From the IMG/VR virus record IMGVR_UViG_3300033485_000001, positions 64,001 to 128,000 of that record: DNA of 64,000 nucleotides. One strand, 5' to 3'. The position numbers were made by a program, and so were the translations under genes. Of the stretch, positions 1 through 64,000 are shown piece after piece. The notes under the pieces are model-generated. The model was given only the letters and a program-made list of their open reading frames with translations, did not search any database and had not been told where the DNA came from. The first letter of the stretch is position 1, and every line of letters starts with the position of its first letter. The stretch comes from a virus.

Positions 1-1539
1 TCGCTCCATCCCGCCGCCCGACGCGGAGATCACTTCGATCTGCGGTTGGTGGACCCGAAGGGACAGGCCCACTCCTGGGCCATCAACAAGATGCCCGAGC
101 CAGGGAGCAGCACTTATGCTGCTCAACAGCCGACCCACTCAGGCTCCTACGCCCGACGAACAGAGCCGTTCACGATCCCCCTCAACGTGTACGGCGGGAC
201 CCGTCCTGGCGCCAAGGTAGAGCCGAAGTATGTGCAGCCCGTCGAGGTCATCGCAGCGAACGACAAGCACGTCCACTTCCTGCGCCATCAAGGGCAGGAG
301 ACCGAGGAGCTGGTCCTCCGCCGAATCGCTCGAGCCGGAGACCGGACGCCCATCTGGGCGTTGCACAACTCGACCAGAACTCGATCTACCCAAGAGGGAC
401 AGCGCCTCCCCGACTCCAAACCCAAGTACCAGGAGATCCCGATCGGGTCCGTGGACCTGACCAACGACCAGCAGCTCATGACCGCCAAGCTCGACGGGGC
501 GCACACCCTCGTCGACTTCCCGAAGGCGGACCGGATGGTGCGGACGTACTCCTACCGCCCCACCCAACGGCAGAGCGGTGTGATCGAGCACACGTTCAAG
601 TTCCCCAACTTCCAGAACCTGAAGACCCCGCAGTCGCTGAAGGGCACGCTCATCCGAGCTGAGACTTGGGCCTCGGATCCGTCCGGGAAGGCCATCCCAG
701 CATCCGAGCTCGGCGGCATCCTCAACTCGAGCGTGGTCAAGGCGCGTCAGGCGCAGGAGCAGGGGATCACGCTGCGCAGGACCGGCATCGACGTGGTCAG
801 GTACAAGGGCAAGGACATCTCGAACGCGCCCTACGCCGAGAAGCTGGAGGTCCTCAAGGAGGTCCACAAGGCAACCGGAGGAGCCATCGAGCTCCCGCTG
901 GCCGCCAGGACCGCCGAAGAGAAGGCCGTGCTCATGAACGCCGTGAAGGCCGGGAAGCTGCCGGAGACGAGAGAGGGCGTGGTCCTACACGACCTGACCA
1001 GCAGCCAGCTGATGAAGGCCAAGGTTCGTCCCGACACGGACGTCTACGTCCGAGAGATCGTCACGAAGCCGTTGACGGAGGCCAAGGGTCAGGCGGCGGG
1101 CTTCAGGTACTCCCTCGAGCCCACCGGCCCCATCATCGGGCACGTTGGCACTGGGTTCTCGAATCAGCTCCGGAAGGAGATGCTACAGAACCCAGATCAG
1201 TTCGTAGGACGTGTCGCGAAGGTTCAGTCGGCAGGCCAGCACGTCAGCCGTAGCGGACAGTCTGGGGCGCTGATCGGCTCTCCTGCTTTCAAGGAGTGGC
1301 ACATCGACAAGACGCCGCCTGAGCTGATGAAGAGGGCATCCCTGGACCCCGCATTCGTGGGGGCGTACCGCATAGCTGAGGAGGAAGCGGATCCAGAGAA
1401 GATCGTGGGTAGGCTCGCGGAGACACGACAGGGCCGCGCCCTCAAGCCCGTGCTCGAGAGCGCGCCGGTCCGACCGTTCGTGTCGAAGTTGAGATCGGCG
1501 TACCGTCGTCTCATGAGGAACAAGAACAGTGCCGCTTGA
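1..1539 (+). CDS. LigD-like protein, 5'-truncated by the window: 3'-phosphoesterase (PE) domain + ATP-dependent DNA ligase + OB fold + short C-terminal extension
   Basis: Frame 1 is open from base 1 (SLHPAARRGDHFDLRLVDPKGQAHSWAINK...QPTH..SY...YGG), matching the LigD PE pattern H-x-A-x(3,4)-H-(Y/F)-D-x-R-L...SWA. Ligase motif I AKLDG, motif IV EGVV, motif V LMKAK and OB-fold VGTGFS follow. Confidence 0.85.
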   Translation, partial: SLHPAARRGDHFDLRLVDPKGQAHSWAINKMPEPGSSTYAAQQPTHSGSYARRTEPFTIPLNVYGGTRPGAKVEPKYVQPVEVIAANDKHVHFLRHQGQETEELVLRRIARAGDRTPIWALHNSTRTRSTQEGQRLPDSKPKYQEIPIGSVDLTNDQQLMTAKLDGAHTLVDFPKADRMVRTYSYRPTQRQSGVIEHTFKFPNFQNLKTPQSLKGTLIRAETWASDPSGKAIPASELGGILNSSVVKARQAQEQGITLRRTGIDVVRYKGKDISNAPYAEKLEVLKEVHKATGGAIELPLAARTAEEKAVLMNAVKAGKLPETREGVVLHDLTSSQLMKAKVRPDTDVYVREIVTKPLTEAKGQAAGFRYSLEPTGPIIGHVGTGFSNQLRKEMLQNPDQFVGRVAKVQSAGQHVSRSGQSGALIGSPAFKEWHIDKTPPELMKRASLDPAFVGAYRIAEEEADPEKIVGRLAETRQGRALKPVLESAPVRPFVSKLRSAYRRLMRNKNSAA

Positions 1540-2302
1540 TCACGAGACAGATCCGGTCCTCGACTTCATCGAGTTCGCCGATGAGCTCGACAAGGAGGCT
1601 GCCGCTGGCAGAGCCGAGAAGGACTTCCAGCTCTGGAACCAGTGGCAGCAGAACGGGAAGAAGTCGGAGGACCTCGAGCCCCTCATGAAGCAGATGGAGC
1701 CGCTGATCCGACGCGCGTCGAACGTCTACTCGGGCAAGGTCAACATCCCGAGGACGGCGGTTCATGCCGAGTTCCAGATCCAGGCGATGAACGCCTTCGA
1801 CACGTTCAACCCCAATCGGGGAGCCTCGCTCGGGACACACGTCACGTGGCAGCTCAAGAAGGGTAAGCGGTTCGTCTCCACGTACCAGAACATCGGACGG
1901 ATCCCTGAGACCAGGATCCACAACATCACGACGTTCCAGAACGCGAGAGATGAGCTTCGTGATCAGTTGATGCGAGATCCTTCGGCGCACGAGTTGGCAG
2001 ATCATCTGAAGTGGCCAGTGAATCAGGTCTCGGCGATGGAGCTCGAGCTGCGGCGTGAGGTTCCGACCTCGACGCTCCAGTCGGACATGAGTTCCATCAA
2101 GCCCTCGAGAGAGGCCGAGATCCTTCGGCTGATCCAGTACGACCTCTCCCCCGACGAGAAGGTCGTGTACGAGCACCTGCTGGGCGTGAACGGGAAGCCA
2201 CAGCTCAAGCCAGGTGAGATCGCGATGAGGCTCAACATGTCGCCGTCGAAGGTGTCCAGGATCAAGGACTCCATCGGCGCCAAGGTGAAGAAGTACTACT
2301 GA
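1529..2302 (+). CDS. Sigma70-family RNA polymerase sigma factor (FliA/SigF-like layout)
   Basis: Region 2-like AFDTFNPNRGASLGTHVTWQL, region 3-like LMRDPSAHELADHLKWP, and region 4 HTH GEIAMRLNMSPSKVSRI. Confidence 0.85.
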   Translation: MPLDHETDPVLDFIEFADELDKEAAAGRAEKDFQLWNQWQQNGKKSEDLEPLMKQMEPLIRRASNVYSGKVNIPRTAVHAEFQIQAMNAFDTFNPNRGASLGTHVTWQLKKGKRFVSTYQNIGRIPETRIHNITTFQNARDELRDQLMRDPSAHELADHLKWPVNQVSAMELELRREVPTSTLQSDMSSIKPSREAEILRLIQYDLSPDEKVVYEHLLGVNGKPQLKPGEIAMRLNMSPSKVSRIKDSIGAKVKKYY

Positions 2303-54231: not shown

Positions 54232-56136
54232 ATGTTCGATTTCGGCTACGGCGGCACCAGTCACTTCCAACCCACGCACACCTACGGTCGCGTGAGAGGG
54301 CAGGCGGTCACGCAGGGCGTGGCCTACCCGTCCCCGTTCTTCGATCTGGCGCACACCTACCTCCCGCCGACGGTCAAGCAGATGTTCAAGTGGTGCAGGT
54401 ACTACTACCTCACCCAGCCGCTCATCGCTGCCGTCGTGAACAAGATGGCGGAGTATCCGATCACGGACCTCGTGATCGACACGGACAACAAGGGTCTCCG
54501 CAACTTGTGGGAGAGGTTCTTCGAGGCGGACATCCAGCTCCGTCCGAGGTTGATCGACATCGGCCTGTACTACATGTGCTACGGCAACGCGCTCGCGTCG
54601 CTCATGCACCCGTTCGTGAAGTGGCTGAAGTGCAAGTACTGCGGCCACTCGGTCATGGCGAAGAAGGCCATGTACAGGTTCCGCACCTACGAGTTCCACA
54701 TGACCTGCGACAAGTGCAACCAGACAGGTCACGCTCTTGTGGAGGATCAGTACCTCCAGACCTCGGGAGGCACCCGCATCATCCTGTGGAACCCCGAAGA
54801 CATCGACATCGTCTTCAACCCGATCACGCAAGAAACGATGTACTTCTACAGCCTCCCCATCCAGACGCTCAACGACATGGCGGTGGGACGGCGGGAGGTC
54901 ATCGAGCAGCTGCCGCAGGTCTTCATCGACGCTGCGAAGAAGCGCAAGTCGATCACGCTCAACAAGGACAACCTCTTCCACATCAAGAGGCCATCCGTCC
55001 TCTCGGGTCCAAGGGACACCGGCTGGGGTACCCCGCTGGTGCTCCCCGTCCTGAAGGACGTCTTCTACCTCCAGATCATGAAGAAGGCACAGGAGGCCAT
55101 CCTCCTCGAGAGGATCGTGCCCCTGACCGTCATCTTCCCGCAGCAGGCGAGCGGGACCGCAGATCCGTACACGAGCGTCAACCTGATCGACTGGAAGGAT
55201 CACATCGCGCAGGAGATTCAGAGGTGGAGGCTGGACAGGAACTACATCCCCATCCTGCCTCTCCCGATCGGGAATCAGGTCATCGGCGGCGACGGACGAG
55301 CTCTGCTCATGTCGCAGGAGATCAAGCTCTGGAGCGACCAGATCGTAGCTGGCATGGGGGTCCCCAACGAGTTCATCTACGGCGGCCTCCAGTGGTCCGG
55401 CTCGAACGTGTCGTTGAGGATGCTCGAGAACCAGTTCATGAGGTATCTGTCCGGACTCCTCCTCTTCATCAAGGACTTCTTGATCAAGGGTATGGCCGCC
55501 CACATGGGGTGGCCCACCGTAGGAGTCAGGTTCAAGCCATTCAAGATGGCTGATGATCTCCAGAGGAAGGCGTTCCTCTTCCAGCTCAACCAGGCCGGCA
55601 AGGTCAGCGACACGACGCTGATCAACGATGCCGACCTGAACCCGGATGAGGAGAACGATCTCCTGCGGAAGGAGACGAAGGCCCGACTCGAATCGGTGAA
55701 GGCACAGCAGATCGCGGAAGCTGAGATCGCCGGCGAGGCTGGTATCGTCCAAGCCAAGTATCAGGCGAAGGCTCAGACGATCATGTCGCAGGAACAGCAA
55801 CAGGCGGCTGCCGGATCTCAGGGCACTGCCCCTGGAGAACCCAGCGAAGAGGTGGGGTCTCAGGCAACGCCACCTCCGGCTGGTGCTCAGCAGGGTCCGA
55901 TGGGACAGCCTCAGCAGGATCCCATGCAGCAGATCGTTCAGCGCCTCCGGGCTCTGAGTCCGGAGGCCCAGCGTACCGTGCTAATGAGGATCGAGCAGAG
56001 CAACCCGGAGCTGGCGAACCAGCTTCGGGCGCAGTTCAAGGAGGGTGGTGGTGTCGATGCCTCGCCGAACTCGGCAGGCAAGCCGCTCCCAACCCAGCTA
56101 CCCCCTCGTAGGGGAACCGAATCAGCGATGATCTAA
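54232..56136 (+). CDS. Portal protein with zinc-ribbon insertion and Q/P-rich C-terminal tail
   Basis: PLIAAVVNKMAEYP, GWGTPLVLPVLKDVFYLQIMKKAQEAI, IVAGMGVPNEFIYGG; size and head-module context. Confidence 0.7.
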   Translation: MFDFGYGGTSHFQPTHTYGRVRGQAVTQGVAYPSPFFDLAHTYLPPTVKQMFKWCRYYYLTQPLIAAVVNKMAEYPITDLVIDTDNKGLRNLWERFFEADIQLRPRLIDIGLYYMCYGNALASLMHPFVKWLKCKYCGHSVMAKKAMYRFRTYEFHMTCDKCNQTGHALVEDQYLQTSGGTRIILWNPEDIDIVFNPITQETMYFYSLPIQTLNDMAVGRREVIEQLPQVFIDAAKKRKSITLNKDNLFHIKRPSVLSGPRDTGWGTPLVLPVLKDVFYLQIMKKAQEAILLERIVPLTVIFPQQASGTADPYTSVNLIDWKDHIAQEIQRWRLDRNYIPILPLPIGNQVIGGDGRALLMSQEIKLWSDQIVAGMGVPNEFIYGGLQWSGSNVSLRMLENQFMRYLSGLLLFIKDFLIKGMAAHMGWPTVGVRFKPFKMADDLQRKAFLFQLNQAGKVSDTTLINDADLNPDEENDLLRKETKARLESVKAQQIAEAEIAGEAGIVQAKYQAKAQTIMSQEQQQAAAGSQGTAPGEPSEEVGSQATPPPAGAQQGPMGQPQQDPMQQIVQRLRALSPEAQRTVLMRIEQSNPELANQLRAQFKEGGGVDASPNSAGKPLPTQLPPRRGTESAMI

Positions 56137-56171
56137 AAAGGGGAGGCGTCTCAGATGTTGAGACGCCTCCC
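56135..56171 (-). terminator. Intrinsic terminator, 13-bp perfect stem + U5 on the minus strand (possibly bidirectional)
   Basis: GGGAGGCGTCTCA-GATGT-TGAGACGCCTCCC preceded by AAAAAG on plus. Confidence 0.85.
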
Positions 56172-56201
56172 TTCACTTTCCACAGCCATCGACTCCGGAC
56201 G

Positions 56202-56297
56202 CTACTCGTCGTCGTCGGAATCGATCAGCCACTCCTCCGTGCTTCCTGTGACCACTGCGACGTACGCAGACAGGAACGCCAGGAGGAAAAGTCTCAT
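56202..56297 (-). CDS. 31-aa peptide MRLFLLAFLSAYVAVVTGSTEEWLIDSDDDE (hydrophobic N-terminus, acidic C-terminus)
   Basis: AAAGGAGGT SD; lies between promoter and terminator. Confidence 0.65.
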   Translation of the reverse strand: MRLFLLAFLSAYVAVVTGSTEEWLIDSDDDE

Positions 56298-56331
56298 CCA
56301 ACCTCCTTTCCGTCAGACGACACGGTACCCA

Positions 56332-56427
56332 TCAGTCGGCCTCGTAGTCGCCGAGGAGATCGTCCTCGACCTCCGACTCGAAGTCCGCGAGCTCGCTGTC
56401 CTCCACCACGTCTTCCGGATCCACCAT
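56332..56427 (-). CDS. 31-aa highly acidic peptide MVDPEDVVEDSELADFESEVEDDLLGDYEAD
   Basis: AGGAGGT SD; 15/31 residues D/E and no K/R; codons match the host-like GC3 bias. Confidence 0.7.
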   Translation of the reverse strand: MVDPEDVVEDSELADFESEVEDDLLGDYEAD

Positions 56428-56469
56428 GCACCTCCTGAGCTAGGGTAAGAGTTTTCCCTACTCAATGAT

Positions 56470-56485
56470 CTTATATCTGGGATCT
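56470..56485 (-). promoter_or_regulatory. AGATCCCAGA-TATAAG promoter motif for the antisense mini-operon
   Basis: Near-identical to 50288-50303; 43 bp upstream of the first sORF. Confidence 0.6.
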
Positions 56486-56581
56486 TGTCGTCCTTGCACG
56501 CGATTGGTAGAGTGAATGAAGCTCATGTTGACCCCCTAGAGGACTGTGATCCTCGATGATCGGGGGTTGCGGAGGCAGCAA

Positions 56582-59500
56582 GTGGCGAGACTTGACCCGG
56601 CCGAGGGGTTCGAGATCCTCAAGAGTCATGTGAAGGACGCGATCTCCAGCTCGTTCCCACAGGAAGGAGCCAAGAACGTCCTCAAGCTCGAGAGCCTGGA
56701 CATCCCCGACAAGCTGAGCGTCAGCAACGTCGGAGAGCAGAAGGCCGCCAAGATGAACGGGCGCACCTGGGGCGTTCCCGTTCACGCGACGCTGGTGCTC
56801 GAAGACAAGAAGACAGGCAAGGTCCTTGACCGAAGCAAGATCAAGATCGCCACGCTGCCCAAGGTGACCAACCGCTACTCCTACATCGTGGAGGGGTCGG
56901 AGTACCAGGTCGACAACCAGTGGCGGCTCAAGCCGGGCGTCTACACGAAGGTCCAGCAGAACGGTGAGCTGGATTCCTTCTTCAACATTCAGGGGCAGCC
57001 GCTGCATCTCGGCTTCGACCCGAAGGAGCGGTCCTTCGTGATGAAGCACGGAGGAGCGCAGCCCCCGCTGTACCCGATCATGCGGGCTCTTGGTCACAGC
57101 GACGGTGACCTCGAGAAGGCGTGGGGCAAGGACATCCTCAACGCCAACATGACCGACAGCCGGGGGAAGGTGCTGAAGGTCGACAAGCACGCCATCGCCT
57201 TCGCGAAGCGCCTGGTGCCAGAGGAGGAGATCACAACCCTCGAGAAGGCGTCGGAGGTCATCAAGCAGAAGTTCGCCGAGTCGCGTCTGCACCCTGACGT
57301 AACGAGCCGCACGCTGGGCAAGGCCATCGACAAGATCACACCAGAGGCGATGCTGCGCTCGTCTCAGCGCCTTCTCGGCGTGGCTCGTGGGACCGAGAAG
57401 CCTGACGTCCGGGACTCACTCATGTTCAAGGAGTTCCTCAGCACCGAGGACTTCATTGGGGAGCGGATCAAGCAGAGCAGCCCGGTCATCCAGCGTCGCA
57501 TCGGGAACAACATCGACAGGCGGGACAAGATCCGTGACATCGTGGGCATGGATGTCTTCCAGCGACCCGTCAAGGAGTTCTTCTCCAAGGTGTCCCTGGC
57601 CTCGACCCCAGAGCAGACCAACCCCCTCAAGATGATCTCGGGTCAGCTTCGTACAACGATCGCTGGGGAGGGTGGCGTCAAGGACGCGAACAGGATCACA
57701 GAGGATGCGAAGCTGGTGGACCCAAGCCACTTCGGCGTTCTCGATCCACTGCACACACCGGAGAGCGTGAAGACCGGCGTGAACCTCCAGCTCGCCCTGG
57801 GGACCAGGAAGGTGGGGACTCGCGTAGAGATCCCGCTCATCCACGCCAGGACCGGGAAGGTGACCTACCTGGATCCTGGGAAGATCAACGACGCCATGGT
57901 GGCGCTTCCCGATTCGGTGAAACGGGTGAACGGGAAGTTCTCTCCGAAGGAAGGATCCACGGTCCTGGTGAGCGGTCCTGGAAACGAGCTGATGCGCGTT
58001 CCCATGAAGGATGTCGAGTACGTCGTGCCGCGCTCGAGCCAGATGTTCTCGATCGCCACGAACATGGTCCCCTTCATCTCCAGCGATTCGCCGAACCGAG
58101 CAACCATGGCCGGCAGGCACATGGAGCAGGCCATCCCGCTCGTGAACCCAGAGGCCCCGCTGGTGCAGTCTGTCCTCGGCAAGAAGAGCTTCGACGAGCT
58201 CGTTGGTTCCTACGCCTCCCATGCGGCGCCGGCGGACGGGACCGTCCTGCGTGTCGAGAAGGACGCCATCCACATCAAGGGCTCCGACAAGAAGACCCAC
58301 ATCGTCCACACCTACGATCACTACCCGACCAACGACAAGAAGGGGATGATCCACAGCAACTCACTCGTGAAGGCCGGCGACAAGGTCACGAAGGGTCAGG
58401 TCGTAGCCGACACCAACTTCACCAAGAACGGCGTCTACGCCCCAGGCAAGAACCTCCAGGTCGCCTACATGCCGTGGCGGGGGTACAACTTCGAGGACGG
58501 CGTGGTGATCAGTGAGACTGCTGCGCAGAAGCTCACGAGCGAGCACCTCCACAAGAAGGGCCTGTCCACGAAGGAGGCGCAGCTTCTGGGGACGAAGAAG
58601 TACCAGGCGTACTACCAGGACCGTCTCAACAAGGAGCAGGCCGCCAAGCTGGATCCTGACGGAGTGGTCAAGCCTGGGATGAGGGTGAAGCCAGGAGACA
58701 CGCTGATCGCAGCTCTGGCGGAGCAGCAGCTCACCACCGAGGAGCAGAAGCTGAAGCTCTTGCACAAGAGCTTGGTGAGGCCGTTCAAGGACAAGGCAAT
58801 CACATGGGACGAGGACGTGGAGGGGGAGGTCATCGAGGTCAACAAGAGGGGGACCAGGGTCGACGTCCACGTCAAGACGGCGGAGCCGATGGACGTGGGG
58901 GACAAGCTGGTGGGTCGTCACGGAAACAAAGGAATCGTGACGATGATCCTACCAGACCACGAGATGCCGAAGACGAAGGACGGGAAACCGATCGAGGTGA
59001 TCATGAACCCCATCGGGACCCCCGGCCGTATGAACATTGGACAGGTCCTCGAGACGGCTGCCGCAAAGATCGCGCAGAAGACTGGTCAGCCCTTCAAGGT
59101 CACCAACTTCGAGGTGGAGAACAACCTCGAGTTCGTCGAGAACGAGCTCAAGAAGCACGGGCTGACCGACAAGGAATCGATCATCGATCCGAAGACGGGC
59201 AGGGAGATCCCGAACATCCAGGTTGGCCCGCAGTACATCCTGAAGATGGAACACCAGGTCGGGAAGAAGATGGCTGCCCGATCACGGGATTCTTACGACC
59301 GCAACCTGGTGCCGAAGGGTGGCGGTCCACACGGAGCTCAGGCCCTCGGCTCGCTCGGCATCTACTCCATGCTGGCCCACGGTGCCAAGGCCAACATCCG
59401 GGAGATGCAGACCTACAAGAGCGACAAGTCGCAGGGTGGTGACAACGACGAGCTCTGGAGTGCGCTCCAGGCTGGTGAGATGCTGCCCCCGCCCAGGACC

Positions 59501-62500
59501 ACCTTCGCCTACAACAAGTTCAACTCCTACCTGAAGGCGCTCGGAGTGAACACTGAGAAGGACGGCAACAGCCTGAACCTCGTGCCGCTCACGGACAAGG
59601 ACGTCCTCTCGATGTCCAACGGCGAGCTCAAGGACGCGGGCCGCGTCGTGAAGATGAGGACGCTCCAGCCGGAGAAGAACGGCCTCTTCGATCCGAAGAT
59701 CACAGGCGGGCATGACGGGACCAACTGGTCCCACATCAAGCTCACCTCACCCATGCCGAACCCCCTGTTCGAGAAAGCCATCATGAGCGTGGCTGGGATC
59801 CGTGGTCCGCAGTTCGACAAGATCATAGGTGGCACGGCGGGTGTGACGAAGGACGGCGCCATCGTCGAGCAGACGGGTGTGAAGGGGGCGACCTACGGAC
59901 CCGCAGCGATCGATCACTTGCTGGCGAAGGTGGACATCAAGAAGGACCTCGCGGTGGAGGAGGCACGGATCCAAGGGCTCAAGGGCCAGCTTCAGAACGA
60001 GTCGAGGCGCAAGATCAAGTACCTCCGTGCGTTGGACAAGCTGGGCATGAAGCCGACTGACGCCTACATGATGAAGCACGTTCCGATCCTGCCTCCGAAC
60101 ATGCGGCCCATCGCCGTGCTCGATGACGGGAGCCTCCAGACCGATGACCTGAACGAGATCTACAAGCAGCTCGCGATCGTCAACAAGAAGCACGGCGAGT
60201 TTCCGGCCAACGCGCCGCAGTCGCTCAAGGCCCCGCTCCAGGAGGACATCTACGATCACCTGAAGTCCCTCACTGGGCTCGGTGGCACCCTCAACAGGAA
60301 GCACCCTGGCATCCTCGACGTCCTCTCAGGACGTGAGGGACCGAAGACCAGCTTCGCACAGGACGTTCTGATCAAGCGCAAGCAGGACCTCACCATGAGG
60401 TCCACCATCGTCCCGGAGCCGTCCCTCTCGCTGGACGAGGCGGAGATCCCGAGGAAGGCTGCGAAGGAGATGTACAAGCCCTTCCTGGTCCGGGAGCTGC
60501 GCCGCACAGCCGGAGTCACCCCGCTTGCCGCCAAGAAGATGATCGACGAGGACGACCCGCTCGCGAACAAGGCGCTGGATCGTGTGGTTCAGGAGCGCCC
60601 TGTGCTGCTGAAGCGCGACCCGGTCCTCCACAAGTACGGCATCCAGGCGTTCAAGCCACGGCTCGTCGAGGGGAAGGCCATCAAGATCCACCCCCTCGTG
60701 TGCTCCGGCTTCAACGCCGACTTCGATGGCGACACCATGAGCGCCTACGTTCCGATCACGGCGGAGGCCGTGAAGGAGGCGGAGCAGATGTTCCCCTCGC
60801 GGAACCTCTTCTCCCCGGCCACTGGATCCGTCATGTACACCCCCGGCCACGAAGCGCAGGTCGGCCTGTTCATGATGGCCGACGCTGGGAAGTGGACTGG
60901 TCAGCGGTTCAAGAGTCAGGCCGAGCTCGAGAGCGCGGTGAGAGCCGGGAAGGCGACTCAGAACGACGTGGTCATGGTGGGGAACGTCAAGACCACGCTC
61001 GGGAGATTGCAGATCAACAGCCACCTCCCAAAGGATCTCCAGGGAGGGAAACTCCTCACCGATCTGAACTACAGGTTCACGAAGAAGGAACAGGAGAAGC
61101 TCTTCAACGGCATGGTCAAGGTCGACCGCGCCGCGTATCCGTCTTCGATCAACAAGCTGAAGGACCTCGGGAACGAGGCAGCCACGATGGGCAGCTTCAG
61201 CTTCGGCCTCGGAGACTTCAAGGTCCACAAGGACATCCGTGATCCAATCCTGCGAAGCGCGGAGGCAAAGGCGGCCAAGCTGGACCTGTCCAAGAAGGAT
61301 CAGCTCAACAAGTTCATCGACATCTACGAGGGCGCGACCAACGAGATCGATGAGAAGCTGAAGCAGCGCATCGCCGACCCCAAGTTCCAGACCAACCTCG
61401 TCAAGCTCGAGGTGGCAGCTGGGATCAAGGGAAGGGGTCTGCGGCAGCTCACGGCAGCCCCAGTTCTCTTCGTAGACGGCAAGGGCGAGGTGGTCACCAG
61501 CCCCGTGAAGAAGTCCTACGCAGAGGGCCTCTCGTCAGGGGACTACTGGGCGGCGACCAGCGGCGGCAGGAAGGGTGCGATCCAGAAGGTCCAGTCGGTC
61601 AGTGAGCCGGGCTACCTGACGAAGCAGATGGCCAACAGCACCCTCGACATGCTCGTGGCCGCCAACGACTGCGGCACCAGCCGAGGCGTGAACCTGCACG
61701 TGGACGAGCCTGATGTGATCGGCAGGTACACCGTCGCGGACCTGAAGCTCCAGAAGGGAATCATCCCGGCGAACACCCTCGTCACGCCGGAGATCCTGAG
61801 CCGTATCAAGAACGCCAAGATCGACAAGGTCGTGGTCCGATCTCCGATGCGCTGTGTCCACGGTAAGGGTGTCTGTGCGAAGTGCATGGGGCTCAACGAG
61901 AACGGGAAGCTCAACGATCTGGGAACCAACGTGGGCATCCTGGCCACCCAGTCCATCGGCGAGCGCGGCACGCAGCTTGCCATGAAGGCGTTCCACTCAG
62001 GCGGCGTCTACGAGGGCAGGGAAGCAGCCACGAAGTCCATTGCAGCGGGTGGCCTCGACCGAGCCGGCAACATCCTGAACCTCCCGCAGAAGCTCAAGGG
62101 ATCAGCGATCCTCTCGACCACTGTCGGTCGGGTGAACAAGATCGAGAAGGATCCCGCCGGCGGTGTTCGAGTCTCCATCGGGGACAAGGAGCACTACGTC
62201 CCCGCCGACCGAGCGATGCTCGACAAGGTTCGCGTGGGGTACCAGGTCAAGAAGGGCGATCCGATTACCAACGGCCCCGTCAACCCACACGAGCTGCTCC
62301 CGCTCACCAACATGAGCAAGGTGCAGGGTCACCTGGCGGGGGAACTCCATTCCATCTACGGGCAGTACGGCATCAAGCGGAGGCACTCCGAGCTCATGGT
62401 GCGGGCGCTCTCGAACGTGACCAAGGTCGAGAACCCCGGCGGCAACCCAGACCTCCTGCCCGGAGACTTCACGAGCACGAGTCAGGTCTACGAGTGGAAC

Positions 62501-62743
62501 AAGCAGAACCCGAAGACCAAGCCCGTGGTTCACACCCCAGTTCTGCGCGGTGTGAAGACGATCCCCCTCGACATCCAAGAGGACTGGATGGCTCGATTGA
62601 ACCACGAGCACTTGAAGAGTACGCTTGTGGAGGCGGCACAGCAGGGATGGCAAAGCAACCTCCACGGCATGCACCCGATCCCGCCCCTCATGCATGGGGC
62701 CGAGTTCGGAAAGGGTACCAAGGACAAGCCCTGGGCCTACTGA
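56582..62743 (+). CDS. rpoBC: Single-chain fused beta-beta' (RpoB-RpoC-like) multisubunit-type RNA polymerase, about 2050 aa
   Basis: Beta motifs HFG..DP..TPES, YMPWRGYNFEDG, GDKLVGRHGNKG, MNPIGTPGRMNIGQ. Beta' motifs VPILPPNMRP, LLKRDPVLH, NADFDGD (60713-60733), GGRKG bridge helix, QSIGERGTQL..KAFHSGG. No stop between them; GGAGG SD before GTG 56582. Confidence 0.95.
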   Translation: MARLDPAEGFEILKSHVKDAISSSFPQEGAKNVLKLESLDIPDKLSVSNVGEQKAAKMNGRTWGVPVHATLVLEDKKTGKVLDRSKIKIATLPKVTNRYSYIVEGSEYQVDNQWRLKPGVYTKVQQNGELDSFFNIQGQPLHLGFDPKERSFVMKHGGAQPPLYPIMRALGHSDGDLEKAWGKDILNANMTDSRGKVLKVDKHAIAFAKRLVPEEEITTLEKASEVIKQKFAESRLHPDVTSRTLGKAIDKITPEAMLRSSQRLLGVARGTEKPDVRDSLMFKEFLSTEDFIGERIKQSSPVIQRRIGNNIDRRDKIRDIVGMDVFQRPVKEFFSKVSLASTPEQTNPLKMISGQLRTTIAGEGGVKDANRITEDAKLVDPSHFGVLDPLHTPESVKTGVNLQLALGTRKVGTRVEIPLIHARTGKVTYLDPGKINDAMVALPDSVKRVNGKFSPKEGSTVLVSGPGNELMRVPMKDVEYVVPRSSQMFSIATNMVPFISSDSPNRATMAGRHMEQAIPLVNPEAPLVQSVLGKKSFDELVGSYASHAAPADGTVLRVEKDAIHIKGSDKKTHIVHTYDHYPTNDKKGMIHSNSLVKAGDKVTKGQVVADTNFTKNGVYAPGKNLQVAYMPWRGYNFEDGVVISETAAQKLTSEHLHKKGLSTKEAQLLGTKKYQAYYQDRLNKEQAAKLDPDGVVKPGMRVKPGDTLIAALAEQQLTTEEQKLKLLHKSLVRPFKDKAITWDEDVEGEVIEVNKRGTRVDVHVKTAEPMDVGDKLVGRHGNKGIVTMILPDHEMPKTKDGKPIEVIMNPIGTPGRMNIGQVLETAAAKIAQKTGQPFKVTNFEVENNLEFVENELKKHGLTDKESIIDPKTGREIPNIQVGPQYILKMEHQVGKKMAARSRDSYDRNLVPKGGGPHGAQALGSLGIYSMLAHGAKANIREMQTYKSDKSQGGDNDELWSALQAGEMLPPPRTTFAYNKFNSYLKALGVNTEKDGNSLNLVPLTDKDVLSMSNGELKDAGRVVKMRTLQPEKNGLFDPKITGGHDGTNWSHIKLTSPMPNPLFEKAIMSVAGIRGPQFDKIIGGTAGVTKDGAIVEQTGVKGATYGPAAIDHLLAKVDIKKDLAVEEARIQGLKGQLQNESRRKIKYLRALDKLGMKPTDAYMMKHVPILPPNMRPIAVLDDGSLQTDDLNEIYKQLAIVNKKHGEFPANAPQSLKAPLQEDIYDHLKSLTGLGGTLNRKHPGILDVLSGREGPKTSFAQDVLIKRKQDLTMRSTIVPEPSLSLDEAEIPRKAAKEMYKPFLVRELRRTAGVTPLAAKKMIDEDDPLANKALDRVVQERPVLLKRDPVLHKYGIQAFKPRLVEGKAIKIHPLVCSGFNADFDGDTMSAYVPITAEAVKEAEQMFPSRNLFSPATGSVMYTPGHEAQVGLFMMADAGKWTGQRFKSQAELESAVRAGKATQNDVVMVGNVKTTLGRLQINSHLPKDLQGGKLLTDLNYRFTKKEQEKLFNGMVKVDRAAYPSSINKLKDLGNEAATMGSFSFGLGDFKVHKDIRDPILRSAEAKAAKLDLSKKDQLNKFIDIYEGATNEIDEKLKQRIADPKFQTNLVKLEVAAGIKGRGLRQLTAAPVLFVDGKGEVVTSPVKKSYAEGLSSGDYWAATSGGRKGAIQKVQSVSEPGYLTKQMANSTLDMLVAANDCGTSRGVNLHVDEPDVIGRYTVADLKLQKGIIPANTLVTPEILSRIKNAKIDKVVVRSPMRCVHGKGVCAKCMGLNENGKLNDLGTNVGILATQSIGERGTQLAMKAFHSGGVYEGREAATKSIAAGGLDRAGNILNLPQKLKGSAILSTTVGRVNKIEKDPAGGVRVSIGDKEHYVPADRAMLDKVRVGYQVKKGDPITNGPVNPHELLPLTNMSKVQGHLAGELHSIYGQYGIKRRHSELMVRALSNVTKVENPGGNPDLLPGDFTSTSQVYEWNKQNPKTKPVVHTPVLRGVKTIPLDIQEDWMARLNHEHLKSTLVEAAQQGWQSNLHGMHPIPPLMHGAEFGKGTKDKPWAY

Positions 62744-63142: not shown

Positions 63143-64000
63143 GTGGCGCGATCACATCGCAACTCGATGGTCCAGCGGGGCGTGAACCCCGTACTGATCG
63201 AAGATGGCCGGATCATCAACGTCGACATGGCCCACTGGACCGTCGACGTCAGAACCATGCACTCGCAACGGCAGCTCCTCGACATGCAGGTCGGAGCGCC
63301 CTACCTGCACTTCACGGCAGGCGAGGGCATCTACGCGATGCCCGAGGTTGGCGCCAAGGTCAAGACGTGCAGCCCCAGCGACGGATCACCGTTCATCCTC
63401 TGCTTCATCACAGCCTTCGAGCGCGAGGGACAGCCTGCGTCCGACGAGGGACAGACCACGACACGTCCCACGACGGAGACCTCGAGCGAGGAGGGCGACG
63501 CCCCGTCCGAGGTGACGTTCCGTGCTGGCCGCCCGAAGCTCCAGCAGGGCGACATCATGATGCGCTGCCGAGACGGGAACCAGATCTGGCTCCATCGTGG
63601 CGGCGTCGTCGAGATCGGAGCTACCTGGATCGCCAAGCGTTACTACATCCCGCTCCTCAACACGGTCCGGGACATCGCCGAGAATTGGGAGGCGCTGACC
63701 ATCGCTGGAGACATGATGTGGCACGTCGAGCGCGCCGACTCGAGTCAGTCCAGCGAGTCACGTCAGGACGAGGCGACCTTCACCCTCATGGCGAAGAACT
63801 TCGCCCAGGATCAGTACGCCACCATCCTCGTCCGCGCTGGTCACGTCGATGACACAGGGCGGTTCAGAATGATCGTGGCCCCCAACCTCATCGACACCAG
63901 GACCGGGGAGGTTCGCGGTGAGGCGGTCTACACGATGGACATCGATGAGGAGGGCAACGTCGACATCACCGTGAAGAAGGATGTCACGATCACCATCGAG
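63143..64000 (+). CDS. Baseplate spike/hub (gp5/gpV-like OB fold), 3'-truncated by the window
   Basis: Open from GTG 63143 to the window end: GRIINVDMAHWTVDV...GEGIYAMPEVGAKV..C.PSDG.PFILCFI. Absent from the ORF track because it has no stop. Confidence 0.7.
   Translation, partial: MARSHRNSMVQRGVNPVLIEDGRIINVDMAHWTVDVRTMHSQRQLLDMQVGAPYLHFTAGEGIYAMPEVGAKVKTCSPSDGSPFILCFITAFEREGQPASDEGQTTTRPTTETSSEEGDAPSEVTFRAGRPKLQQGDIMMRCRDGNQIWLHRGGVVEIGATWIAKRYYIPLLNTVRDIAENWEALTIAGDMMWHVERADSSQSSESRQDEATFTLMAKNFAQDQYATILVRAGHVDDTGRFRMIVAPNLIDTRTGEVRGEAVYTMDIDEEGNVDITVKKDVTITIE

What the first reader, a model, noticed from the sequence alone, without database searches (positions are those of the whole stretch)
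56582..62743. Single-polypeptide, size-reduced beta-beta' RNA polymerase plus cognate sigma
Seen: all catalytic beta and beta' motifs in one ~2050-aa ORF. The junction is near 59555-59590 (FNSYLKALGVNT-EKDGNSLNLVP-LTDKDVLSMSNGEL). It is much shorter than the ~2750 aa of E. coli beta + beta', and no alpha or omega gene lies in this window. Known: phages with bacterial-like multisubunit RNAPs have been reported from metagenomes, and natural rpoBC fusions exist in Helicobacter and Wolbachia; phiKZ-type enzymes are instead split. Inference: a minimal, possibly alpha-independent two-barrel RNAP that, with the sigma and TATAAG promoters, forms an autonomous transcription system.
Basis: partly seen in the sequence, partly recalled or inferred. 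Interest (0 to 1): 0.8.

Follow-up and report, generated by a model that had tools for sequence, protein, structure and literature searches.

The report
Single-chain bacterial-type phage RNA polymerase
An uncultured 178-kb phage encodes both large subunits of a bacterial-type RNA polymerase as one 2,053-residue protein between its portal and tail-spike genes; it has its own sigma factor and belongs to a large, barely described phage family whose cultured relative appears to carry the enzyme in the virus particle.

Summary
Window 56582-62743 (+) is one open frame of 2,053 aa with a complete beta module, then a complete beta' module, joined at residues ~990-995 (59555).

The fusion is not an assembly artefact. 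The junction is matched in one stretch in each of the 150 best cluster representatives, and 67 IMG/VR loci carry relatives, most spanning residues 1-2053.

In quick trees, both halves fall outside all sampled bacteria. They group with Salmonella phage Arash and Vibrio phage D69, where beta is fused to only the N-terminal half of beta'.

"Size-reduced" is overstated. Most of the shortfall against E. coli is the absence of E. coli-type insertions. Losses specific to the family are the beta' zinc-binding domain, the beta' C-terminal tail and the GEME motif of beta.

No alpha or omega gene was found in the genome. A sigma-70-family gene lies at 1529-2302. A GGTATAAGATC promoter-like motif is strongly intergenic, but it does not drive the polymerase gene.

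The gene lies in the virion module, and Arash virion proteomics detected polymerase and sigma, so virion delivery is my leading, unproven reading.

This scan noted the same family on other genomes. I found no paper describing it.

The parts
56582..62743 (+). Fused beta-beta' RNA polymerase gene (2,053 aa plus stop)
   Evidence: Open frame. Pfam Rpb2 then Rpb1 domains. Bacterial beta' 2.5e-115 and beta 2.2e-87 in the PDB sequence search. AlphaFold2 models with TM 0.85 (beta' half) and 0.71 (beta half) to bacterial subunits.
56582..59554 (+). Beta module (residues 1-991)
   Evidence: Aligns at residues 55-977 to residues 70-1040 of a 1,100-aa cyanobacterial beta. K775, K783, R816 and E638/D639 correspond to E. 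coli K1065, K1073, R1106 and E813/D814. The flap-tip helix is present. The GGQRFGEME motif is replaced by HGAQALGSLG.
59546..59590 (+). Beta/beta' junction, modelled as an ordered beta-hairpin (residues 989-1002)
   Evidence: E. coli mapping. DSSP strands 989-994 and 997-1002 with block pLDDT 86-94. Invariant G988, G995, N996, L1000 and P1002 in 21 fused homologues. The junction is matched in one stretch in most of the 150 best representatives.
59555..62740 (+). Beta' module (residues 992-2053)
   Evidence: NADFDGD at residues 1378-1384 (DNA 60713-60733). Bridge helix, trigger loop and second zinc site C1697/C1758/C1765/C1768 are conserved. Model pLDDT 85.5, TM 0.85 to a 1,199-aa bacterial-type beta' (PDB 9a4w_B, an integrative RPOA-RPOC model).
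59705..59725 (+). Site of the deleted beta' zinc-binding domain (after residue ~1045)
   Evidence: E. coli beta' 67-98, with C70/C72/C85/C88, has no counterpart in any of 28 family members. The four Cys are present in 12 of 12 sampled bacteria.
61016..61033 (+). Position equivalent to the gene split in Arash and Vibrio D69 (residues ~1479-1484); continuous here
   Evidence: Arash gp206 maps to residues 31-1479 and gp216 to residues 1484-2057. The same place separates the cyanobacterial rpoC1 and rpoC2 model matches.
56571..56575 (+). Shine-Dalgarno GGAGG, 6 nt before GTG 56582
   Evidence: Read from the sequence. Conserved in L009 and L010.
56485..56513 (+). Sigma70-like promoter candidate TTGTCG-N17-TAGAGT, with TGG just before the -10 element
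   Evidence: Read from the sequence. The -35, TG and -10 elements are conserved in relatives L008, L009, L010 and L057. It is one of only two full matches to this pattern in 74 upstream regions. Function not shown.
1529..2302 (+). Sigma-70-family factor gene (257 aa), the presumed partner
   Evidence: 30% identical to Arash gp10 sigma, 4.9e-26. Pfam Sigma70_r3 1.9e-9. Residues 81-176 align to sigma70 residues 407-500. NCBIfam whole-length sigma matches are all below cut-off. Homologue present in 4 of 5 near-complete relatives. N-terminal FADELDKEA tag.
54232..56136 (+). Portal gene (context)
   Evidence: 28% identical to Arash portal gp204, 1.9e-80. Found upstream of the polymerase gene in 58 of 68 related loci.
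63143..64000 (+). T4 gp5-like tail-spike gene (context; runs past the window end to 64336)
   Evidence: Pfam Gp5_C 5.4e-6 and Gp5_trimer_C. PHROG baseplate hub / tail lysozyme. Found downstream in 59 of 68 loci.

Best explanation
This is an active, bacterial-type, two-barrel RNA polymerase in which beta and beta' are one chain.

Shown or modelled:
- The C-terminal strand of beta runs straight into the N-terminal strand of beta' and is modelled as an ordered hairpin.
- The catalytic centre, bridge helix, trigger loop, flap tip and clamp helices are kept.
- The beta' zinc-binding domain and the beta' C-terminal tail are lost.

Inferred:
- The enzyme pairs with the phage's own sigma-70-family factor (window 1529-2302). 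Together they transcribe phage genes independently of host polymerase, probably from the GGTATAAGATC sites. These look like extended -10 elements with G at the -7 position.
- The gene lies between the portal and tail-spike genes throughout the family. The Arash homologues and sigma are abundant in purified virions. The enzyme is therefore probably packaged with sigma and delivered with the DNA to start early transcription.
- It probably needs neither alpha nor omega and is probably insensitive to rifampicin.
For: Fusion real and conserved.

Bacterial-type fold and sequence.

Catalytic residues invariant.

Junction modelled as an ordered hairpin.

Only multisubunit-type polymerase detected in the genome. 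No T7-like match, though the control was uninformative.

No alpha or omega found.

Sigma homologue with regions 2-3-4, co-occurring in 4 of 5 near-complete relatives.

Motif: TATAAG/CTTATA occurs 26 times, 19 of them in the 9.6% of the genome that is intergenic. In 20 of 26 cases a same-strand gene follows, often with an SD and start 25-50 nt downstream. The 11-mer occurs 9 times here and 13 times in relative G003, against 0-1 for the reversed control.

Virion context: portal upstream in 58 and gp5-like spike downstream in 59 of 68 loci.

Arash virion mass spectrometry: Gp206 had the most spectra (3,516), Gp216 had 1,210, and sigma Gp10 had 100% coverage (PMC10585845).

Sigma carries the N-terminal F-x-D-E-L-x-K-x-A tag, which occurs in six other proteins, at the N-terminus in four of them.

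Rifampicin pocket: H526 to G, S531 to T, D516 to E or variable, I572 to N/T, R687 to E, family-wide.
Against: No experiment exists for this phage. Virion packaging rests on a 33%-identical relative, and the Arash authors themselves allow carry-over of an abundant protein.

The polymerase has no capsid-targeting tag.

Its gene has a conserved sigma70-like promoter candidate. That fits a T7-like scheme in which host polymerase first makes the phage enzyme.

Absence of alpha and omega genes does not exclude use of host alpha.

Nothing links the TATAAG sites to this enzyme apart from their non-host-like -7 G and lineage-specific conservation. The motif is nearly absent in the more distant relatives G001, G002 and G004.
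Confidence: 0.6

Rival explanations
1. Non-virion, T7-like scheme. Host sigma70 polymerase transcribes the phage polymerase and sigma genes early. The phage holoenzyme then takes over middle and late transcription from TATAAG sites. The location among virion genes would be historical, and the Arash virion signal would be carry-over.
For: A conserved sigma70-like site, TTGTCG-N17-TAGAGT with TGn, lies ~70 nt upstream of the gene and is nearly unique in the genome. The polymerase has no capsid tag. The Arash authors mention possible contamination by abundant proteins. Other phage bacterial-type polymerases sit in replication modules (Carin-5, RHph_TM30).
Against: Portal-polymerase-spike synteny is conserved down to ~40% identity. 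Gp206 is the single most detected virion protein in Arash, and sigma was also detected. Sigma carries the shared N-terminal tag. TATAAG sites precede small, early-looking genes, and host sigma70 would be expected to read a -10 element with G at -7 poorly (inference from established -10 recognition).
Confidence: 0.3
2. The single-chain core still assembles on host alpha dimer (and perhaps omega), so it is a hybrid enzyme and not autonomous.
For: Helicobacter and Wolbachia beta-beta' fusions are not known to dispense with alpha (my recollection of the literature, not checked here). Most of the bacterial architecture is retained.
Against: Family members occur with very different hosts and GC contents: Salmonella and Vibrio isolates, and contigs binned with cyanobacterial and Bacteroidales MAGs. 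That would require binding divergent alphas. The beta' C-terminal tail is missing. From memory of E. coli polymerase structures, this tail is part of the omega-binding region, which was not checked here. PhiKZ- and AR9-type phage polymerases work without alpha or omega (PMC7598289, from its abstract, plus general knowledge).
Confidence: 0.25
3. Cellular rpoB-rpoC from a contaminating bacterium, or two genes merged by a sequencing or assembly error.
For: None beyond general similarity to bacterial polymerase.
Against: Identity to bacterial rpoB-rpoC is only 27-31%. Both halves lie outside all sampled bacteria with 100% SH-aLRT support. The same fused frame occurs in 67 IMG/VR loci and in each of the 150 best 50%-identity cluster representatives, from JGI, ENA, Logan and NCBI. 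The neighbours are phage portal and spike genes.
Confidence: 0.01

Closest known systems
RNA polymerase of Salmonella phage Arash (Gp206 + Gp216, with sigma Gp10; PMC10585845) and of Vibrio phages D69/D148/D181
   Same: Same clade in both trees. 31-34% identity over the whole length. Same beta-to-beta' junction fusion. Portal, small gap, then polymerase in the same order. Homologous sigma. Similar genome size (181-187 kb).
   Different: In those phages beta' is cut at the equivalent of residue ~1480 into a separate gene. The two genes are 9 genes apart in Arash. In D181/D148 a homing endonuclease is annotated under the match. Here the chain is continuous. The Arash paper annotates Gp206 simply as 'beta' and does not discuss the fusion.
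mReC, the multisubunit-RNAP-encoding Caudovirales (Weinheimer & Aylward 2020, PMC7481178), and isolates with separate genes (Cobetia phage Carin-5, Rhizobium phage RHph_TM30, Vibrio phage 1.031.O)
   Same: Phage-encoded, bacterial-like beta and beta' that branch outside Bacteria. Small subunits (about 1,000 and 890 aa in the paper's table; 928 and 1,085 aa in Carin-5). A sigma gene lies next to the polymerase genes in Carin-5.
   Different: Beta and beta' are separate genes, placed among replication genes. The supplementary table rows I saw list two gene ids per contig, and none of the six ~2,050-aa lengths I searched appeared as a protein length. No true mReC sequence was in my trees, so the relationship is open.
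Natural rpoBC fusions of Helicobacter and Wolbachia (NCBIfam NF007172, NF011417)
   Same: Beta followed by beta' in one polypeptide, joined at the natural termini. NF007172 is the best NCBIfam match.
   Different: Score 598 bits against a cut-off of 5,372. Those are ~2,840-2,890-aa cellular enzymes inside Bacteria. This one is 2,053 aa, lacks the zinc-binding domain and branches outside the sampled bacteria.
Virion RNA polymerases of crAss-like phage phi14:2 (gp66), phiKZ/AR9 jumbo phages and N4
   Same: The proposed role is the same: a polymerase carried in the particle for early transcription. gp66 is also a single chain of ~2,180 aa (figure recalled, not checked here) with two barrels.
   Different: The crAss enzyme is reported as highly divergent, with cellular homology not easily identified (PMC7481178). 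PhiKZ/AR9 enzymes are split into 4-5 subunits, and no sigma factor is found in those phages (PMC7824862). N4 uses a T7-like enzyme. This enzyme matches bacterial beta' at 1e-115 and has a sigma-70-family partner.

Membership tests
Bacterial-type multisubunit RNA polymerase large subunits (beta/beta') | Beta' NADFDGD magnesium site, bridge helix, trigger loop | tested here: met
   D1380/D1382/D1384, M1801 and H1805 are aligned and invariant or nearly so in 28 family members.
Bacterial-type multisubunit RNA polymerase large subunits (beta/beta') | Beta active-site lysines and acidic pair | tested here: met
   K775, K783, R816 and E638/D639 correspond to E. coli K1065, K1073, R1106 and E813/D814.
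Bacterial-type multisubunit RNA polymerase large subunits (beta/beta') | Overall fold of both subunits | tested here: met
   Beta' half: TMq 0.85 to 9a4w_B and 0.84 to the S. aureus chain. Beta half: TMq 0.69-0.72 to bacterial beta chains.
Bacterial-type multisubunit RNA polymerase large subunits (beta/beta') | Beta' N-terminal four-Cys zinc-binding domain | tested here: not met
   32 aa are deleted in all 28 family members. All four Cys are present in 12 of 12 bacteria.
Bacterial-type multisubunit RNA polymerase large subunits (beta/beta') | Beta GGQRFGEME motif | tested here: not met
   Replaced by HGAQALGSLG-like sequence in the family. Conserved, with at most one conservative substitution (GGQ[RK][FL]GEME), in all 13 bacterial sequences aligned.
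Bacterial-type multisubunit RNA polymerase large subunits (beta/beta') | Curated NCBIfam equivalog scores for rpoB and rpoC | tested here: not met
   rpoC TIGR02386: 529 bits against a cut-off of 963.5. rpoB NF001616: 403 against 896.
Helicobacter/Wolbachia rpoBC fusion | Beta then beta' in one chain | tested here: met
Helicobacter/Wolbachia rpoBC fusion | Equivalog score and placement within Bacteria | tested here: not met
   598 bits against a cut-off of 5,372. Outside all sampled bacteria. No Helicobacter or Wolbachia sequence was in the trees.
Arash-like phage polymerase | Monophyly with Arash/D69 and shared junction fusion | tested here: met
   100% SH-aLRT clade in both trees. gp206 spans the junction.
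Arash-like phage polymerase | Beta' C-terminal half as a separate gene | tested here: not met
   The chain is continuous here.
Arash-like phage polymerase | Polymerase and sigma present in virions | not testable with these tools
   Known only for Arash by mass spectrometry.
mReC (PMC7481178) | Separate beta and beta' genes, each at least 800 aa | tested here: not met
   A single gene here. The supplementary table lists two gene ids per contig in the rows seen.
mReC (PMC7481178) | Membership of their clade in a polymerase tree | not tested
   No mReC sequence was available to me. Rhizobium TM30 and Vibrio 1.031.O beta' attach between bacteria and this clade on long branches.
PhiKZ/AR9-type jumbo-phage polymerases | Beta and beta' split into 4-5 polypeptides, no sigma | tested here: not met
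   One chain. A sigma gene is present.
Sigma-70 family (for the partner at 1529-2302) | Regions 2, 3 and 4 | tested here: inconclusive
   Region 3 passes the Pfam cut-off (37.9 against 25.3 bits). Residues 81-176 align to sigma70 residues 407-500, regions 2.2-3.1. There is a C-terminal helix-turn-helix at residues 218-245, and whole-length NCBIfam matches are all below cut-off. Pfam region 2 was not detected.

The most novel reading that the evidence does not exclude
The enzyme would be a self-sufficient two-protein holoenzyme: a single-chain core plus a capsid-tagged sigma. It would need no alpha or omega, would be packaged in the virion and injected, and would read its own TGGTATAAG-type promoters. 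That would make it, to my knowledge, the first sigma-dependent, bacterial-type virion RNA polymerase, and a compact orthogonal transcription system found across a very large phage family.
Probability: 0.35. Interest if true: 0.8.

Novelty: new variant of a known kind. Interest (0 to 1): 0.62.

Why it matters
Phage polymerases of the cellular type are known in three forms: split enzymes without sigma (phiKZ, AR9), an extremely diverged single chain (crAss), and separate beta and beta' genes (mReC).

This family combines three things. It is a clearly bacterial-type enzyme in one chain, it has a sigma-70-family partner, and it sits in the virion module.

If it works without alpha and omega, it gives a natural two-gene, probably rifampicin-insensitive, orthogonal transcription system. 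It would also be a tractable model for three questions:
- what alpha, omega and the beta' zinc domain contribute to the bacterial enzyme;
- how a ~230-kDa sigma-dependent polymerase could be delivered through a tail;
- when such enzymes were acquired by phages.

The family is large, with 355 cluster representatives at E <= 1e-30 for the junction alone, and it has cultured members. The questions can therefore be tested now.

Tried and rejected
- **Assembly artefact or cellular contamination:** rejected.
- **"Minimal" enzyme:** rejected as stated. Mapping to E. coli shows the missing ~655 aa are mostly betaSI1, betaSI2, beta 1128-1181 and beta'SI3.
- **TATAAG promoter driving the polymerase gene:** rejected. 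The only copy nearby points the other way, towards a small acidic ORF.
- **A general TGGTA core shared by all phage promoters:** rejected. TGGTA is 13% intergenic against a 9.6% background.
- **Capsid-targeting tag on the polymerase itself:** not found.
- **The + strand 97-aa ORF at 56155-56448 as the counterpart of Arash gp205:** probably not a gene. It was not picked by the GC3-based gene calling, has no family match, and is overlapped by a conserved minus-strand unit.
- **Neighbouring 689-aa gene as a homologue of the Arash virion helicase gp217:** no similarity.
- **Second polymerase in the genome:** none of the multisubunit type. No T7-like match, but that control was uninformative.
- **Literature searches for a description of the fused family:** nothing beyond the Arash annotation.
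- **Whether the Arash-type split is ancestral or derived:** not resolved. The beta' tree puts Arash/D69 as sister to the fused group. The beta tree nests them weakly, at 22% support.


Full report
**Observation**

The window is bases 64001-128000 of a 178,539-bp IMG/VR virus record that CheckV rates complete. Its GC content is 62%.

One frame is open from 56546 to 62743. The start is GTG 56582. GGAGG lies 6 nt upstream, and the identical 2,053-aa protein is on record from independent assemblies.

Pfam finds beta domains (Rpb2_3, Rpb2_6) at residues 344-906 and beta' domains (Rpb1_1, Rpb1_2, Rpb1_5) at residues 1147-1947. The best PHROG families are two separate ~1,200-aa families of 'unknown function'.

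When E. coli rpoB and rpoC are added to my alignments, beta residue 1340 meets phage residue ~994 and beta' residue 14 meets phage residue ~992.

**Is the fusion real?**

- The best 120 clusters in the 5.8-billion-protein collection are all at least 2,036 aa and carry both Rpb2 and Rpb1 domains. They are 46-100% identical and lie on contigs up to 198 kb. Many are 2,400-3,600 aa because of intein or homing-endonuclease domains.
- An IMG/VR scan gave 67 loci. Most match residues 1-2053 in one ~6.2-kb stretch at 40-86% identity.
- A 201-aa query spanning only the junction found 355 representatives of 50%-identity clusters at E <= 1e-30. Most of the 150 listed match in a single stretch across the junction.
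- In 21 fused homologues the junction is as conserved as the rest of the protein: G988, G995, N996, L1000, P1002 and D1005 are invariant.
- The AlphaFold2 model of residues 960-2053 has pLDDT 85.5 and pTM 0.78. It folds residues 989-994 and 997-1002 as two adjacent strands with block pLDDT 86-94. The join is therefore modelled as an ordered hairpin, not a floppy tether.

From my recollection of bacterial polymerase structures and of the engineered E. coli beta::beta' fusion (not checked here), the two termini lie side by side in the clamp. That would explain why the fusion is tolerated.

**What kind of polymerase?**

By sequence, the nearest solved structures are bacterial beta' (C. difficile, 2.5e-115) and beta (cyanobacterial, 2.2e-87, aligned nearly end to end). 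The models superpose on bacterial subunits with TM 0.85 for the beta' half and about 0.7 for the beta half, which carried an extra 115 residues.

Conserved:
- all catalytic and mobile elements;
- the second zinc site;
- the flap-tip helix;
- the clamp helices, about 8 residues shorter.

Bacterial rpoB-rpoC loci are only 27-31% identical.

I built quick IQ-TREE trees (LG+C20 PMSF, SH-aLRT support only). In the beta' tree, 37 bacteria from six or more phyla form one side of a fully supported branch. The 12 fused sequences plus Arash and D69 form a 100% clade on the other side, and two other phage beta' sequences attach in between on long branches. The beta tree gives the same split, 26 bacteria against 14 phage sequences.

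Limits of the trees:
- they are unrooted;
- the bacteria were the 80 best matches rather than a balanced sample;
- no archaea, mReC, Helicobacter or Wolbachia sequences were included.

What is shown is only that the clade is not nested in any sampled bacterial group.

**Is it size-reduced?**

Only modestly. Segments of at least 8 aa that are absent relative to E. coli:
- beta 1-26;
- beta 230-349 (betaSI1);
- beta 935-1047 (betaSI2);
- beta 1128-1181;
- beta' 67-98;
- beta' 553-569;
- beta' 945-1126 (beta'SI3);
- the beta' tail after ~1366.

The large ones are lineage-specific insertions that many bacteria also lack. Each module is about 10% shorter than the smallest solved bacterial subunits (1,100-aa beta, 1,161-aa beta').

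Losses specific to the family:
- The four-Cys zinc-binding domain of beta' is absent in 28 of 28 family members and present in 12 of 12 bacteria.
- The beta' C-terminal tail is missing.
- The GGQRFGEME motif of beta is replaced.

The rifampicin pocket differs at the classical positions, including H526 to G and S531 to T. Resistance is therefore likely, but this is an inference.

**Partners**

No alpha (PF01000, PF01193) and no credible omega (PF01192) match occurs in six frames of the whole genome, while all 14 control genomes rang. A very diverged alpha, or use of host alpha, cannot be excluded.

The sigma lies at window 1529-2302. The evidence for it:
- It is 30% identical to Arash gp10.
- It passes Pfam Sigma70_r3.
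- It aligns to sigma70 regions 2.2-3.1.
- It has a C-terminal helix-turn-helix.
- It is conserved in 4 of 5 near-complete relatives.

**Promoters**

TATAAG and its complement occur 26 times, 19 of them in the 9.6% of the genome that is intergenic. When oriented, the consensus is (C/T)TGGTATAAGATC. A same-strand gene follows in 20 of 26 cases, often with an SD and a start codon 25-50 nt later. The downstream genes are mostly small ORFs at genome positions 10-54 kb and 160-176 kb.

The motif resembles an extended -10 element (TGnTATAAT) with G at -7. Bacterial sigma70 would be expected to read that base poorly (inference from established -10 recognition).

The 11-mer is also frequent in relative G003, at 13 copies against 1 for the reversed control. 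It is nearly absent in three more distant relatives.

It does not drive the polymerase gene. The copy at 56467-56475 points leftwards to a 31-aa acidic ORF. A separate site, TTGTCG-N17-TAGAGT with TGG before the -10, lies at 56485-56513 facing the polymerase gene. It is conserved in four relatives and is nearly unique in the genome.

**Context and mechanism**

The gene lies between the portal gene (1.9e-80 to the Arash portal) and a T4 gp5-like spike gene. This order holds in 58-59 of 68 related loci.

In Arash, the homologue Gp206 gave the most spectra of any protein in purified virions. Gp216 and sigma Gp10 were also detected. The authors note that carry-over of abundant proteins is possible (PMC10585845).

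Here the sigma carries the N-terminal F-x-D-E-L-x-K-x-A tag, which occurs in six other proteins, at the N-terminus in four of them. The polymerase does not carry it. I confirmed only that the motif is present.

My leading reading, at about 0.55-0.6, is a virion-delivered holoenzyme that starts early transcription. The main rival, at about 0.3, is a T7-like scheme in which host polymerase first makes the phage enzyme from the sigma70-like site.

**Comparison and novelty**

- **Nearest relatives.** The Arash and Vibrio D69/D148/D181 enzymes are closest. In them beta is fused only to the N-terminal half of beta', and the C-terminal half is a separate gene. The cut is at the place where cyanobacteria split rpoC1 and rpoC2.
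- **mReC.** mReC phages and isolates such as Carin-5 have separate genes in replication modules.
- **Cellular fusions.** Helicobacter-type fusions are cellular, and this protein scores far below their model cut-off.
- **Literature.** I found no paper describing this fused family, although databases hold hundreds of members.
- **Earlier notes.** This scan noted the same family on other genomes and reached similar readings. I do not count that as independent evidence.

Noticed in passing
window 56141-56478 (-): A self-contained minus-strand unit lies in the gap between the portal and polymerase genes. It has a TATAAGATC promoter-like site (56467-56475), an SD, a 31-aa ORF at 56332-56427 that is 47% Asp/Glu, and a 13-bp hairpin followed by a T-run (56171-56141). 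Relatives L009, L008, L057 and L013 have the same arrangement, with acidic peptides of 39-51 aa. It may be an early small acidic protein such as a DNA mimic or a polymerase or sigma inhibitor.
   Followed up: partly
relatives P0008-P0125; Vibrio phages D181/D148: Many family members carry intein or homing-endonuclease domains (PF14528, PF14890, PF05204, PF03161) inside the polymerase gene, giving proteins of 2,400-4,739 aa. In D181/D148 a homing endonuclease is annotated under the match that spans the two polymerase genes. Mobile-element insertion may have produced the Arash-type split.
   Followed up: no
whole genome G000; relatives G001-G004: The 11-mer GGTATAAGATC (up to 1 mismatch) occurs 9 times here and 13 times in G003 (polymerase 49% identical), but 0-2 times in G001, G002 and G004 (~41-43% identical). 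The promoter-like motif is specific to one lineage within the family.
   Followed up: partly
L075 and L076 (genome contigs): Two family members sit on 162-kb and 204-kb contigs binned into a Leptolyngbyaceae MAG and a Bacteroidales MAG. These are probably phage genomes swept into bins. At best they are weak host hints.
   Followed up: no
window 56155-56448 (+): This 97-aa ORF occupies the place of Arash gp205. It was not picked by the GC3-based gene calling, has no family match, and overlaps the conserved minus-strand acidic-peptide unit. It is probably not a gene.
   Followed up: partly
window 61016-61033 (+), residues ~1479-1484: The place where Arash and D69 cut beta' into two genes coincides with the boundary between the cyanobacterial rpoC1 (gamma) and rpoC2 model matches.
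   Followed up: partly
window 1529-2302 and genome genes g106, g139, g140, g164-g166: Seven proteins, including the sigma, match F-x-D-E-[LFM]-x-K-x-[AG], most near the N-terminus. The polymerase has no such motif, even with a loose pattern.
   Followed up: partly
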